Made by a program: the position numbers. DNA of 64,000 bases from Escherichia coli (GTDB lineage Bacteria > Pseudomonadota > Gammaproteobacteria > Enterobacterales > Enterobacteriaceae), in the NCBI RefSeq assembly GCF_030013205.1, contig NZ_CP122648.1, one strand, 5' to 3'. Shown one piece after another: positions 6,001-12,000 of this stretch (position 1 is its first letter; every line of letters starts with the position of its first letter).

Positions 6001-9000
6001 CAGAAAAATGCAGAGAACAACGCTCGTTATATCGCTGCATTTAATCCTGCGGTTGTACTGGCATTGCTCGATGTATTGGACGCATCGCTGGATGTGAAGC
6101 CTGTAGCGTCATGCATTGTTGAAGATGGGGGTATGTGTGTTGACGGGTTCAGTGAGTATGTTGGTCACTCGCTGCCTGATGGGATGCATGAGCTTTATGC
6201 TGCCCCGCCAGCGTCGGTAGTGCCGGAAGGACTAGTTAAAGCAGTGCGTTTCTATGAACAGGTAAAGTGTGAGAATCCGCCAGTCGAAACCGGAGCATGG
6301 AAAAACGCGGTTGACTGGGTGCTCAACGAGGCTTGCCAGGCTGTAAACATTGGCATCAAAGGAGCGTGAGATGAATGGACAAATATCAATTGTTCGACCG
6401 GGAGCATGTGACGATTGCGAGATACGAATGATTATTCGTCTGGCGAGGGGGAAAACAATAACTGCTCTCATTACTCCTGAAAATCTCGCATTAGCATTAA
6501 CAGGAAAGTCAGACCTGCCAGTAGAGCTAAAGCTGCGAAATATTGAGATTAAAGTGAAATAGTTATGAATACTCTTACCAAAGAATGGTTACAGAACACG
6601 ATTACCGGAATTGAGTCGATAATAGACGATAAATCGTTTGTATGTAGTGAAATAGCATTCGAAATAGGTCAGGTTAACAACATACTTACCGCATTTAAAA
6701 TTGCACTGGCATCGCTGGCAGCAGTATCGGATGAACGGGCAGCCTATGAATTATTTATGGAGAAGCGTTTCGGGGAATCTGTAGATCGCCGCAGGGCAAA
6801 AAATGGTGATAGAGAATACATGGCATGGGATATGGCGCTTGGCTGGATTATCTGGTGTCACCGCGCCGCCATGCTTCAGGGAGGCCAACCTGTAAACCAA
6901 ACTTACAACTTGCCAGAATTAATCGAAGGCATGGAAGTTTCCATTGATGTTAGCACTTGTGATGCTGATTTAGGTAATCGCTATTTCGGCACCGTCACCG
7001 AGGCGTTAGAACTTGATACAGCCAAGAATGGTTACATCCTCCTGGTTCAGGACGCAGAGCCTAACTTCGATGTAAATGGCAACTCTCCGGGAACTCCGGA
7101 TAGTTGGATAAGCTGTAGTGATCAAATGCCTGAAAAGGGCCAGAACGTGCTTATTTCGGTGAATTTCGATAGCTCTCTGGTTGAACCGCTAATATGCTCC
7201 GCACGCTATACCGGAAGCACCTTTCGGCGCGGAGATGCAACGATTAAGCCGGGTAATGGTATTGAGCAAGCAACTCACTGGATGCCGCTACCGGAACCGC
7301 CGCAGGAGGTGAAGTGATGAACAACTTAATGATCGACCTTGAGACGATGGGGAAAAATAAGGATGCACCGATCGTTTCCATTGGCGCGGTGTTCTTCACT
7401 CCAGAAACCGGAGACATCGGACAAGAATTCTATACGGTTGTTAGCCTGGAAAGTGCTATGGGGCAAGGAGCTACACCTGACGGCGATACCATCCTGTGGT
7501 GGTTGAAACAAAGCCCTGAAGCACGAGCTGCAATCTGTATTGATGATACTTTGTCGATCAGCGATGCTCTCTCAGAACTAAATCATTTCATTAACCGGCA
7601 CGCAGCCAATACGAAATATTTAAAAGTCTGGGGTAACGGGGCCACCTTCGACAACGTAATTTTACGTGGAGCTTATGAGCGAGCAGGACAAATCTGCCCT
7701 TGGGCATACTGGAATGACCACGATGTACGCACGATCGTTACGCTTGGGCGTTCCATCGGATTCGACCCCAAAATGGACATGCCTTTCGATGGCGAACGGC
7801 ACAACGCCCTGGCCGATGCCCGTCATCAGGCAAAATATGTTTCCGCTATCTGGCAGAAATTAATTCCTGCCACCAGCACAGAATTATGATTTTCCCGGGT
7901 GCAGCCGGTTTTGATGGAGAAAATTATGAACACCTTGTTTTTACTGATGGCTGAATTCAATACCCCTAACATTGAACTCTCAGCAGTTAGCCAAAAGTAC
8001 TTTGGCATGAGTCCAGCCACGGCAGAAGCAAAAGCAAACGCTTGTAAGTTGCCCGTTCCAACATATCGCATCGGCACATCACAAAAAGCAAAACGTTGCA
8101 TCAATATTCAGGATCTTGCGGAATACATAGACAAAAGACGAGAAGAAGGACGTATCGAGTGGGAACAGGTCAGAACAAGCAAACAGAAGGGCAAAGAACA
8201 TCACTAAAGAAAAAACCCGCCTAAAGCGGGTTTTCAAAAAGCACCAGCTATGATCATGCTGCTTTGCGACGACGAAGCTTACCCTGCTGCTCTTTACCAG
8301 AGACAGTAGCGTGAGTGAACGCATTAGGAGCAGCCTTCATCAGAACTTCAACAGCAGCACCCATACCTGCGAATGCTTTCATTGTGTCGAACTTAACCTG
8401 TGGCTTGGTTGCTTTTTGATCTTCCATAGAAAACTCCAGAAGCTATACCGAAACAATTCCTGTTGTTTACTCATCATCAATAGATGATACGCAATATTTA
8501 TTTTTAAATTTAAGGTTCTTTGGCGTAACTTCATCAGATATATCAAAACCGTCCAGAATTCTATTGAATGTAGCTTCTGGCATATCATCATGAACGGAAA
8601 TCTCACCCGATCGCTGCTTTCTAACCATGTTATCCACTCGCCAAATTATAGCTTCAGCGTAAACAACATAACTTGGATGCTTGATAAAGCGATGATCACC
8701 AGAATTCAAGACGCAAGACGGATCGTGGGGGACACCATCCTTGATACTAGAAATATTAACAACTAAAACACAATAACAATCGTTAACGGGGTAATAAACA
8801 GGATCATTACAAATCACATGAAGATGATTGCATGGCCCAGTTGGGGCAAGCACAGTTCCTTTCCTGTATGGCTGATAATCCGTCATGATAATTGCAAAGA
8901 AAATTCCTTAAGTTTCTGAGATTCTTCCATTTTGCCAATTATACGATTAGCCTCATCCTCGCTTTTACCCTCACTGATCAGCATTTCTTTCAGGTCTATA

Positions 9001-12000
9001 GGCTTACGAGAATTGCCAGGATTGTGCCACTCTGGACAAACGCTTTCTAAATGCGTCATGTTTGCGAGATCAAATCGGTTCATATGCCCATACAGAGAAT
9101 AGATTTCATCTAAAATCCGGATATCTGCACGGCTCAACTCATCAAAGACCTCGTCTGCATCCATTTCCCTCGGATCTGAACGCAACAACACATCATGCCC
9201 GTTCGTCTCTATCAGGTTGTACCAGTAGTCACCAATACCTTCAGCCTTACCACGAATCAAGTTCAGCGTATTCGACATGACTGGACCAAATTTCATAGAG
9301 TAAAGGCTATCTTCGCCGATCATCCTGCCATGCTTCAAAATCGACTTGCGGTTAGACAGATAGAGCAGCTTCATCAATTTCAGATATGCCATGCGCCCAC
9401 CTCGCTTAAGAAGTAGGTATGCAGCCATTTGAGCTACTTTTTCTTCGCAAAACATATAAGAAACCTCAAAGATAGTGAACTTTGTAATTATTCTCGATAC
9501 TTCATGGGTTGCTTCATCACCAACATGAGCTTCTTATGGTGTGCCCACTTAGGCCTAAGCAACTAGTTACCTTGTTTGTCAAGTTTATAGCTGGCTTTAA
9601 TCATGGTCAATTGAAGTGATGAGCAAATGATGCTTTCTAAGAATAACAGGTTCCCAATAGGCTCCCACAAAGTGTATAACTAGTTGTTTTTCAAAAACGG
9701 TACATCCTATCGAGCATTGGTGCAACGCTAAACCGACCACTCCAGTGAACGTCAGTTTTTTCAGGCATTGCGCTGGTTTGGTTGATTTTTTGCATTTCAG
9801 AATTACCGTGCATTTTCAAATGTAGAGATTATTTTATCGATATATCATGGGGTTATGTTATTCAGCATCACTGTTCAGGAGGCTCAATAGCGGGGTACTA
9901 TACCATAACAACAGGAAGCGCCTGTCTCATTGCAAAAGAAAATTGAGATCCTCTCAAGGCATGAAGCTCTCACGAAGTGATGGAAATAATCTTATTAGCC
10001 GTTAGCTTTGTTAAGGCCAATGATAAACAATCCAGGTTCGACGATAAATAAAAATCACACATTAAACTCCGGTGATATCTCTCCCTGCTAATAGCACTGA
10101 TAGAGAAAAAAAGAACCCAATAAGCATTGGGTTCTTTTATGTAATACCTTCCATACCATCGAAGAACTTCACATATTATTTTTCTAGTTCAATACCAAAT
10201 AGATCATAAATTGAATTAGAGATATCGTTTGGAATTTGAATCAATTCCGTTGAATCTGGGTCACACGATTGTACGAAGTCATTTAATTTCTGCGCCGCAC
10301 CATGCATTTTTGTAACGTCTTTTAGGACTCGTTTTCCTTCGTCTTCCTGACGTTTCATATCAGTTACAATGTCATTGAAATCCAGTTTCCCTGCGACTGC
10401 CAGATTTTTCATCTCCTTCAGATTTTTTTTCATCTCTTGTTGAGATAACGTTTTCACCTGATCTGTTATGTATTTTTCGCAATACTCATCAATATCCACT
10501 GCAGCTACCAGATCTGCTAATGCACTACCATATGAACATGAAATTAAAAGGGAAGCCAAGGGTTTTAAGCGAATATCGTCATATTGATGATATGCATTTT
10601 CTAAATTTATAAAACCATCACCTAAAGTTTGTAGATGTAACGAAGCTATAGATTCATCATCAATAGATTTTTCATAAAATAGTTGAATAGTTGATGGGAG
10701 TCCATTCGGGCTTGCTACATCAAAAGTACATCTGTCTATGAGACTTACTGTCTGATGTTCTACTTTATTACAGACAAAACTAATCGCATAATGAAAAATC
10801 GCCCTGTCTACATATAAAGCGATATAATCACGATCGCCTAATTGCTCTTGAGAGCAGTCATCAATACACTTATCGACCCACAGTTTGAGTTCATTTATTC
10901 TGCTGATTAACGACACATTTTTGATACTTGCTGTCCATAAATTAAGGGTGATTTTTTGAATAAATAAATCTATTTTTGCAATAATCACATCGCGATTATT
11001 CGCAGTTGCATAATCAACCGATTTATTATATATATCCTTTATTTTTTCTTTGCTCGCATCTTTAATTTCGTATTGATTTGAATGGAGTGTATTATTGAAG
11101 AATTCTGTTGCACTTGAAATTATACCTGACATGATTCATCCACCTTTTTTGTCGTACCGTGTCCTCCTTATAATTCTTTTGCCATCTGCTCACTATCAAA
11201 AATCGCTCATAATCTCTGAAGTACAGGTATGCGATCAAACCCAGCTAAATAAATAGCGATTTAACTTGAAGCAATTTATTTAAAAATGAATTATTAATTA
11301 TTATCGTGTTGATAATGGTACTACCAGGCAAAACAACACATTACGTACAAAACAGAAAATCAACATTACGGCAACAATAAGGGTTCTCGGTGTTTTTCCT
11401 GGAACATGGTAAAGTAAGGACATTCTTAACCCCCACTTTGAGGTGCCCGATGGAAAAGACCACAACGCAGGAGTTATTAGCGCAGGCTGAAAAAATCTGT
11501 GCGCAGCGTAATGTGCGCCTGACTCCACAGCGCCTGGAAGTGTTGCGCCTGATGAGTCTGCAGGATGGCGCTATCAGCGCTTATGATCTGCTTGATTTGC
11601 TGCGCGAAGCTGAACCGCAAGCCAAGCCGCCAACGGTTTATCGCGCGCTGGATTTTCTGCTTGAGCAAGGTTTTGTGCATAAGGTGGAATCCACCAACAG
11701 TTATGTGCTCTGTCATCTGTTCGACCAGCCCACTCATACTTCAGCCATGTTTATTTGCGATCGCTGCGGCGCAGTGAAAGAAGAGTGTGCAGAAGGCGTG
11801 GAAGACATTATGCATACGCTGGCGGCAAAAATGGGGTTTGCCCTGCGGCATAATGTGATTGAAGCACATGGGCTCTGTGCGGCATGTGTGGAAGTGGAAG
11901 CGTGTCGTCATCCTGAACAGTGCCAGCATGATCACTCTGTGCAGGTGAAAAAGAAACCGCGTTAAGAGGGCGTACATCCTTGTACACGTCGGGCAGGAGG

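What the first reader, a model, noticed from the sequence alone, without database searches (positions are those of the whole stretch)
8254..9455. Three-gene minus-strand module at the prophage edge: Panacea/DUF4065-like protein, unknown 139-aa partner, 57-aa ORF
Seen in sequence: three co-oriented ORFs (190 aa, 139 aa, 57 aa) between the convergent early-left operon terminator (8209-8235) and an AT-rich spacer. The first two are translationally coupled by an ATGA overlap at 8883-8886, the third begins 40 nt after the second with its own GGAG SD, and the whole block is AT-rich compared with flanking phage and core DNA. Established knowledge: DUF4065 (Panacea) is an antitoxin domain that pairs with highly diverse, often unrelated toxin domains, and such modules are frequently carried in prophage variable regions as defence or addiction cargo. 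Inference: this is a PanA-type antitoxin with an undescribed partner, possibly a tripartite system. It is the strongest candidate in the window for a previously undescribed system.
Basis: partly seen in the sequence, partly recalled or inferred. Interest (0 to 1): 0.85.

Follow-up and report, generated by a model that had tools for sequence, protein, structure and literature searches.

The report
Known PanA-PanT toxin-antitoxin pair in prophage
The first two genes are an ordinary, already catalogued Panacea-type toxin-antitoxin pair (PanA antitoxin plus a MazF-fold toxin) carried as swappable cargo at the edge of an E. coli prophage, and the third small gene belongs to a different module, so this is not a new three-part system.

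Summary
The 190-aa protein is a stand-alone Panacea (PF13274) protein. The 139-aa partner is not undescribed. Its AlphaFold model has a MazF/Kid fold. It belongs to toxin cluster T6 of Kurata et al. 2022, whose Pseudomonas moraviensis member was shown to be toxic, neutralised and bound by its PanA, and to block translation. A PanA homologue lies directly upstream of the toxin homologue in all 28 loci from other genomes and phages that include upstream DNA.

The 57-aa ORF is not part of the system:
- It has no homologue at any of those loci, including the closest relatives (Kosakonia, Pluralibacter), which sit in the same prophage slot.
- In E. coli it occurs in 561 genomes, but only 204 have it next to PanAT.
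- Elsewhere its constant upstream partner is a 177-179-aa GNAT-fold protein.

The PanAT cassette (window 8441-9648) has replaced that GNAT gene next to the attP arm of a dusA-integrating mEp460-like prophage.

Verdict: a bipartite, already described PanAT type II module of low novelty. The toxin's chemistry and any anti-phage role remain untested.

The parts
8883..9455 (-). panA: 190-aa stand-alone Panacea-domain antitoxin. The Panacea domain spans residues 27-137 and is followed by a conserved C-terminal extension of about 50 aa.
   Evidence: ORF. Pfam SocA_Panacea PF13274, E 3.1e-18. phrog_1281. RefSeq names it 'Panacea domain-containing protein' WP_000458583.1. The N-terminus MFCEEKVAQ and the length (181-194 aa) are conserved in 22 partners of T6 toxins.
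8467..8886 (-). panT: 139-aa MazF/Kid-fold toxin of PanT cluster T6.
8883..8886 (-). ATGA stop/start overlap coupling panA to panT.
   Evidence: Read. The same -4 overlap occurs in Kosakonia, Serratia, Pantoea and Yersinia phage YeP1; other homologous pairs have gaps of -1 to +15 nt.
8441..9648 (-). The swappable cassette: panA-panT plus a 193-nt leader.
   Evidence: Phage mEp460 and O157/O111 prophages are homologous to the window up to 8440 and again from 9649, and carry a different gene in between.
9582..9610 (-). Sigma-70-like promoter candidate for the cassette (TTGACC, 17 nt, TAAACT). Weak evidence.
   Evidence: The number of such sites in the region is not above the shuffle expectation, so this is only a candidate.
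8254..8427 (-). 57-aa ORF. A real gene, probably co-transcribed, but not a component of the PanAT system. It is the second gene of a different module (GNAT-fold protein plus 57 aa).
   Evidence: phrog_2741. Found in 561 E. coli genomes against 204 with the PanT junction. Its partner is a 177-179-aa protein in Salmonella, Enterobacter and Hafnia. It has no homologue at any other PanAT locus. dN/dS is 0.07-0.19.
8211..8235 (-). Intrinsic terminator ending the minus-strand transcript.
   Evidence: an 11-bp stem then a T-run on the minus strand. No terminator was found between panT and the 57-aa ORF.
9649..9709 (.). Phage attP arm shared with mEp460-type prophages. The prophage ends at 9709.
   Evidence: O157 and mEp460-type alleles match from 9649. 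Prophage-free genomes such as BW25113 match only from 9710.
9710..9814 (-). Displaced 5' fragment of chromosomal dusA, which marks the integration site.
   Evidence: RefSeq annotation 'tRNA-dihydrouridine synthase, incomplete, missing C-terminus'. An intact dusA lies under the match in prophage-free genomes.

Best explanation
This is a two-gene PanAT type II toxin-antitoxin module.

- **Components.** panA encodes a stand-alone Panacea-domain antitoxin. The translationally coupled panT encodes a MazF/Kid-fold toxin of the published cluster T6.
- **Shown for a family member, inferred here.** PanT arrests growth by blocking protein synthesis, and PanA neutralises it by direct binding in a complex.
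- **Inferred from fold only.** The toxin probably acts as an endoribonuclease.
- **Inferred from anatomy.** The ATGA overlap means toxin is made only after antitoxin. The pair has its own leader and possible promoter, so it can be expressed from the repressed prophage.
- **Context.** The module is a 1.2-kb cassette in the variable slot between the attP arm and the excisionase of a dusA-integrating, mEp460-like lambdoid prophage. In most related prophages a GNAT-fold gene occupies that slot.
- **Third gene.** The downstream 57-aa gene is left over from that other module. It is probably co-transcribed with panAT but is not part of the system.
- **Likely benefit (inferred, untested).** Abortive-infection-type protection of the lysogen against other phages, and/or stabilisation of the prophage.
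For: - **Panacea domain.**
- **Conserved pairing.** A PanA homologue lies immediately upstream of the PanT homologue in all 28 loci that include upstream DNA. These cover Gamma-, Beta- and Alphaproteobacteria, Helicobacter, and five unrelated phage types.
- **Family identity.** Loci found with this protein in Pantoea septica LMG 5345, strain 2016-Iso4, Salinivibrio socompensis S35 and G. diazotrophicus PA1 5 have panA-panT distances of -4, -1, +1 and +15. These are exactly the values listed for cluster T6 in those genomes in Kurata et al. Dataset S1.
- **Validated member.** The T6 member from P. moraviensis is toxic, neutralised, pulled down with its PanA, and selectively inhibits 35S-Met incorporation (PMC8832971). 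The PanA of Pseudomonas phage Sirocco begins MIFSEQKVAQ, the same ten residues Kurata et al. restored to the P. moraviensis PanA.
- **Cassette boundaries and bipartite nature.**
- **Purifying selection on both genes.**
- **Gene integrity.** Full-length (at least 80% covered) in 205 of the 207 E. coli genomes that carry it.
- **Hotspot position.** In the P2-like phage Sirocco the pair sits next to the portal gene. That is the position of the cos-proximal defence hotspot of P2-like phages described in PMC9122126.
Against: - Nothing was tested experimentally for the E. coli proteins.
- Several phage-borne PanAT candidates of another cluster (T1, including one from E. coli) were not toxic in Kurata's assays.
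- There is no sequence-level link to MazF. Pfam found none. The family profile against PDB sequences found no MazF.
- The invariant residues (H21, D55, C58, H65, S72, Y76; nearly invariant H23, C26, D28) are rich in His, Cys and Asp, so the chemistry may differ from MazF's. MazF's catalytic residues were not mapped onto this protein.
- No PADLOC model matches, and no paper found links this cluster to phage defence.
- The promoter call is no better than chance, and no operator-like repeat was found in the leader.
Confidence: 0.85

Rival explanations
1. The three genes form one tripartite system: PanA, a toxin, and a 57-aa accessory or regulatory protein.
For: The genes are co-oriented, with only 39 nt and no terminator between panT and the 57-aa ORF, and a single terminator after it. 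In E. coli, 204 of 207 PanAT copies are followed by the 57-aa gene. Kurata et al. do report conserved third genes for some PanAT clusters.
Against: There is no 57-aa homologue at any of the 31 PanT-homologue loci outside Escherichia. In Kosakonia and Pluralibacter, the same prophage slot holds PanAT at 86-87% aa identity followed directly by the excisionase gene, 36 nt later in Kosakonia. A further 357 E. coli genomes have the 57-aa gene without PanAT. Its constant partner across four genera and three different prophage positions is a GNAT-fold protein. Its GC content matches the backbone, not the cassette.
Confidence: 0.05
2. The pair is an inactive or non-toxic relic, or a phage protein pair with a non-TA role such as a lifecycle function, that merely has TA-like architecture.
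For: Several predicted phage-borne PanAT pairs were non-toxic when tested, including E. coli MOD1 and Salmonella phage Emek in cluster T1. There are no defence-database hits.
Against: Both genes show strong purifying selection. Invariant polar residues are kept from Alphaproteobacteria to Helicobacter. The genes are full-length in 205 of 207 E. coli genomes. A member of the same cluster is a validated toxin. The cassette is dispensable for the phage, since viable mEp460 lacks it.
Confidence: 0.1
3. PanT has the MazF barrel but is not a MazF-type endoribonuclease. On this reading it uses its invariant His/Cys/Asp set for metal-dependent or thiol-based chemistry on a translation component.
For: The invariant residues are H21, D55, C58, H65, S72 and Y76; H23, C26 and D28 are nearly invariant. 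There is no sequence-profile similarity to MazF or Kid. Two extra C-terminal helices are absent from MazF-length proteins. CcdB shows that this fold can act without RNase activity.
Against: The T6 member selectively inhibits translation, as MazF-type toxins do. The nearest structural neighbours are all RNases. Residue geometry could not be inspected with the tools available.
Confidence: 0.2

Closest known systems
PanAT pairs of toxin cluster T6 (Kurata et al. 2022, PNAS, PMC8832971); validated example PanA/PanT of Pseudomonas moraviensis (WP_083354365.1 / WP_083201923.1)
   Same: Stand-alone Panacea antitoxin of about 185-190 aa with no N-terminal domain. Antitoxin-first order with a -4 to +15 nt junction. 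A toxin of about 135 aa with a MazF/PemK-like fold detectable only by structure or HHpred. Found in Enterobacterales, including Pluralibacter, Pantoea, Proteus and Photorhabdus.
   Different: The E. coli copy itself is not among the accessions found in the stored part of their dataset and has not been tested. Here it sits in a defined swap-in slot of a dusA-integrating lambdoid prophage, and RefSeq truncates the toxin by 11 residues.
MazEF / Kid-Kis (PemIK) type II toxin-antitoxin systems
   Different: The antitoxin is a Panacea-domain protein, not an AbrB/MazE-type protein. There is no PF02452 match. The invariant residues are rich in His, Cys and Asp, and MazF's catalytic residues were not mapped. 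There are extra C-terminal helices. RNase activity has not been shown.
SocAB (Caulobacter type VI TA), the founding Panacea-domain system
   Same: The antitoxin carries the same Pfam domain, PF13274.
   Different: The NCBIfam SocA equivalog scores 13.5 bits against a cut-off of 190. The partner is not SocB. PanA antitoxins act by direct binding, not as ClpXP adaptors.
Variable accessory-gene (moron) slots of temperate phages, e.g. the cos-proximal hotspot of P2-like phages (Rousset et al. 2022, PMC9122126)
   Same: A fixed position flanked by conserved phage genes holds alternative unrelated cargo: PanAT in 204 genomes and a GNAT-fold gene in most of the others. In the P2-like Pseudomonas phage Sirocco the PanAT pair lies next to the portal gene.
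   Different: This slot lies between the attP arm and xis of dusA-integrating lambdoid phages. Only two alleles were seen here, and no defence activity has been shown for either.

Membership tests
PanAT (Panacea-antitoxin type II TA; Kurata et al. 2022) | The antitoxin contains the Panacea domain (PF13274/DUF4065). | tested here: met
   E 3.1e-18, residues 27-137, covering model positions 1-109 of 113.
PanAT (Panacea-antitoxin type II TA; Kurata et al. 2022) | [quoted passage not shown] | tested here: met
   The window has a -4 overlap. A PanA homologue lies directly upstream in all 28 loci that include upstream DNA.
PanAT (Panacea-antitoxin type II TA; Kurata et al. 2022) | The partner belongs to a described PanT cluster (T6). 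| tested here: met
   Homologues retrieved with this protein lie in four genomes listed under T6. Their intergenic distances are identical to those listed: -4, -1, +1 and +15.
PanAT (Panacea-antitoxin type II TA; Kurata et al. 2022) | The toxin arrests growth, and the cognate PanA neutralises it by forming a complex. | not testable with these tools
   Shown only for the P. moraviensis T6 pair. The E. coli proteins are untested.
MazF/PemK/Kid endoribonuclease toxins | CcdB/MazF SH3-like barrel fold. | tested here: met
   [not shown]
MazF/PemK/Kid endoribonuclease toxins | A sequence-family match (Pfam PemK_toxin, or a profile hit to solved MazF proteins). | tested here: not met
   No Pfam hit. 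The family profile against PDB sequences finds no MazF. hhalign to MazF and Kid gives probability below 1%.
MazF/PemK/Kid endoribonuclease toxins | Catalytic residues and sequence-specific RNA cleavage. | not testable with these tools
   The invariant set is rich in His, Cys and Asp. Model coordinates could not be inspected, MazF's catalytic residues were not mapped, and activity needs biochemistry.
Tripartite TA (pair plus a conserved accessory third gene) | The third gene is conserved with the pair across genomes. | tested here: not met
   No homologue in any of the 31 PanT-homologue loci outside Escherichia. Absent in the same slot in Kosakonia and Pluralibacter. A further 357 E. coli genomes carry the 57-aa gene without PanAT.
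SocAB type VI TA | A SocA equivalog, with SocB as the partner. | tested here: not met
   NF047745 scores 13.5 bits against a cut-off of 190. The partner has a MazF fold.
Catalogued anti-phage defence systems (PADLOC-DB 2.0.0) | A match to a defence-system protein model. | tested here: not met
   No family matched any of the three proteins at E <= 0.1.

The most novel reading that the evidence does not exclude
The most novel reading still open concerns the 57-aa gene and its usual partner. On this reading, the 57-aa gene is the surviving half of an undescribed mobile two-gene module: a Pfam-invisible GNAT-fold protein of 177-179 aa (fold neighbours include the tRNA-acetylating toxins TacT and AtaT) plus the 57-aa protein. 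That module and PanAT would be functionally interchangeable cargo, such as abortive-infection modules, at the attP-xis slot of dusA phages. The retained 57-aa protein might still act, for example as an orphan antitoxin or regulator. Separately, the T6 PanT might use its invariant His/Cys/Asp residues for non-MazF chemistry.
Probability: 0.12. Interest if true: 0.5.

Novelty: already known. Interest (0 to 1): 0.15.

Why it matters
It matters little as a discovery. The module is another occurrence of a published and partly validated PanAT family. It is present in about 4% of complete E. coli genomes, and RefSeq already labels the antitoxin as Panacea-domain-containing.

Useful by-products:
1. 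A corrected start codon for the toxin. RefSeq truncates a conserved N-terminus.
2. Exact cassette boundaries showing allelic replacement at a prophage cargo slot.
3. Evidence that the neighbouring 57-aa gene belongs to a separate, uncharacterised GNAT-fold module. That module is probably the more interesting lead.

If PanAT of this cluster were shown to protect lysogens against phages, it would add a common E. coli prophage-borne defence. That remains untested.

Tried and rejected
- **Sequence-level assignment of the 139-aa protein.** Pfam gave nothing significant. NCBIfam gave only spurious sub-threshold DapC hits. PADLOC gave none. The family profile against PDB sequences gave only E>0.1 noise. 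Only structure comparison was informative.
- **Accessions in Kurata et al.** A search for the E. coli accessions in their supplements found nothing. The file is truncated, so this does not prove absence. The E. coli pair they did test (MOD1) is cluster T1 with a -20 overlap, so it is not this one.
- **SocAB membership.** Rejected.
- **Tripartite hypothesis.** Rejected on distribution.
- **Regulatory elements.** No direct or inverted repeats in the leader and att region 9430-9830. Promoter-like sites are not above the shuffle expectation. No Rfam family above threshold in 7800-10300.
- **Literature on defence.** No paper found ties DUF4065/Panacea plus MazF-like pairs to phage defence. There is no mention in Rousset 2022 or Vassallo 2022.
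- **Complex prediction.** A PanA-PanT complex prediction was considered but not run, because the structure tool returns no interface information.

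
Full report
**1. Observation**

The window carries three co-oriented minus-strand ORFs exactly as described: 8883..9455 (190 aa), 8467..8886 (139 aa) and 8254..8427 (57 aa).
- The first two overlap in ATGA at 8886-8883.
- The third starts 39 nt after the second's stop. GGAG lies 6 nt before its ATG.
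- A strong hairpin plus T-run at 8235..8211 on the minus strand ends the block. No terminator lies between genes two and three.
- GC is 0.39 for the 139-aa gene and 0.43 for the 190-aa gene. The phage flank is 0.47. The 57-aa ORF is 0.48, like the backbone.
- All three are under purifying selection.

The window is E. coli chromosome, 100% identical to strain ETEC4079. The block lies at the end of a lambdoid prophage inserted in dusA. Prophage-free strains match only from window 9710, so the prophage ends at 9709.

**2. The 190-aa protein**

It is a Panacea-domain protein: PF13274, E 3e-18, residues 27-137. It has no extra N-terminal domain. It carries a C-terminal extension of about 50 residues that is conserved among partners of the same toxin family. 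It is not a SocA equivalog (13.5 bits against a cut-off of 190).

**3. The 139-aa protein**

No Pfam, NCBIfam, PADLOC or PDB-sequence match exists. Homologues were collected: 62 with the single sequence and 227 with the profile.
- They keep the N-terminal PYRKGTVL. The ATG at 8886 is therefore the true start, and RefSeq's GTG at 8853 cuts off 11 conserved residues.
- The AlphaFold model is confident (pLDDT 90.5).
- Foldseek's top 50 PDB hits are all MazF.
- The residues kept from Alphaproteobacteria to Helicobacter are H21, D55, C58, H65, S72 and Y76. H23, C26 and D28 are nearly invariant. MazF's catalytic residues were not mapped, and hhalign to MazF and Kid finds nothing. The fold is shared, but the chemistry is not established.

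**4. Link to the literature**

Kurata et al. 2022 (PMC8832971) catalogued PanA-associated toxins. [quoted passage not shown] It has antitoxin-first order and PanA without an N-terminal domain. It includes Proteus, Pluralibacter, Pantoea, Photorhabdus and a Yersiniaceae strain.

A scan of species-representative genomes with my family profile returned loci in four of the very genomes listed under T6: Pantoea septica LMG 5345, strain 2016-Iso4, Salinivibrio socompensis S35 and Gluconacetobacter diazotrophicus PA1 5. Their panA-panT distances are -4, -1, +1 and +15, identical to those tabulated for T6. The 139-aa protein is therefore a T6 PanT.

The T6 pair from P. moraviensis was shown to be toxic, neutralised by its PanA, co-purified as a complex, and to inhibit translation selectively. 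The E. coli pair Kurata et al. tested and found non-toxic is a different cluster: T1, with a -20 overlap.

**5. Is the pair conserved? Is the trio?**

A PanA homologue lies immediately upstream of the PanT homologue in all 28 loci that include upstream DNA. These comprise 23 of the 26 genome loci plus five phages of unrelated types: Yersinia YeP1, a Vibrio tectivirus-like element, the P2-like Pseudomonas phage Sirocco, a Klebsiella phage and a Helicobacter prophage.

None of the 31 PanT-homologue loci contains a homologue of the 57-aa protein. The closest relatives are Kosakonia and Pluralibacter, at 86-87% aa identity, in the same zur-side prophage slot. There panT is followed directly by the convergent excisionase gene, and the 57-aa gene and its terminator are simply missing.

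Within E. coli the counts are:

| Feature | Complete genomes (of 5,426) |
|---|---|
| panAT present | 207 |
| 57-aa gene present | 561 |
| panT/57-aa junction present | 204 |
| 57-aa gene with homology stopping at window 8437-8440 | 357 |

**6. What the 57-aa gene belongs to**

In phage mEp460 and in O157:H7 and O111 prophages, the slot holds a 177-aa protein (gp23, WP_000956557.1) instead of panAT. Homology to the window runs up to 8440 and resumes at 9649. The swapped cassette is therefore 8441-9648. The attP arm 9649-9709 and everything from 8440 downwards are backbone.

The 177-179-aa protein plus the 57-aa protein also travel together in three settings:
- In Salmonella, in the same slot.
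- In Enterobacter hormaechei prophages, between late-regulatory genes and the lysis cassette.
- In Hafnia, between the Q antiterminator plus a RelA_SpoT-domain gene and the holins.

The 57-aa ORF is therefore the second gene of another module, and panAT has displaced that module's first gene.

**7. Mechanism**

- **Shown for the family, inferred here.** PanT blocks translation, and PanA neutralises it by direct binding.
- **Inferred from fold.** PanT is an endoribonuclease.
- **Inferred from anatomy.** The ATGA coupling ties toxin synthesis to antitoxin translation. The cassette brings its own 193-nt leader, with a weak promoter candidate at 9610-9582 and no operator-like repeat. Transcription probably runs on through the 57-aa gene to the terminator at 8235-8211.
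- **Role.** Unknown. The position in a swappable cargo slot fits prophage-borne defence or addiction. So does the occurrence next to the portal gene of a P2-like phage, where P2-like phages keep a defence hotspot. No defence database or paper supports a defence role for this cluster.

**8. Verdict**

The claims of an undescribed partner, a possible tripartite system and high novelty are not. This is a bipartite PanAT module of a published, partly validated cluster, and its interest is low. The only less ordinary points are side observations: the GNAT-fold plus 57-aa module and the His/Cys/Asp signature of T6 toxins.

Noticed in passing
[not shown]
   Followed up: partly
L007 2805-3000, L038 2808-3000, L043 2823-3000 (spacer between the GNAT-fold gene and the 57-aa gene): The spacer holds a conserved hairpin or palindrome, CCAATCG(A/G)...(T/C)CGATTGG. 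The mEp460 and Salmonella copies differ by an apparently compensatory change (A..T against G..C). It could be an RNA stem-loop or a protein-binding site. It is absent from the window, because the panAT cassette replaced it.
   Followed up: no
window 8853-8886: RefSeq/PGAP starts the PanT gene at the GTG at 8853 (128 aa, WP_014640052.1). Homologues conserve the 11 residues upstream (PYRKGTVL), so the ATG at 8886 in the ATGA overlap is the real start. The annotated protein is N-terminally truncated.
   Followed up: yes
window 8467-8886 (PanT residues H21, H23, C26, D28, D55, C58, H65, S72, Y76): T6 PanT proteins keep a His/Cys/Asp-rich set of invariant residues from Alphaproteobacteria to Helicobacter. 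This raises the possibility of a metal site or non-MazF chemistry.
   Followed up: partly
L047 1150-2109, L048 1051-2109, L050 909-1955 (Hafnia prophages): A 319-352-aa RelA_SpoT-domain protein sits directly upstream of the GNAT-fold + 57-aa pair, between the Q antiterminator and the holins. It resembles a toxic alarmone synthetase or CapRel-type protein. The arrangement suggests a cargo or defence hotspot.
   Followed up: no
L004 929-1884 (Pseudomonas phage Sirocco): A PanA + T6 PanT pair lies next to the portal gene of a P2-like phage. This corresponds positionally to the cos-proximal defence hotspot described for E. coli P2-like phages (PMC9122126).
   Followed up: partly
window 9710-11132: The prophage is inserted in dusA, whose displaced 5' fragment lies at 9710-9814. 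The adjacent chromosomal DUF2713 (yjbM-like) gene at 10176-11132 is markedly AT-rich (GC 0.33-0.37), more so than the prophage cargo. It is frameshifted in some strains.
   Followed up: no
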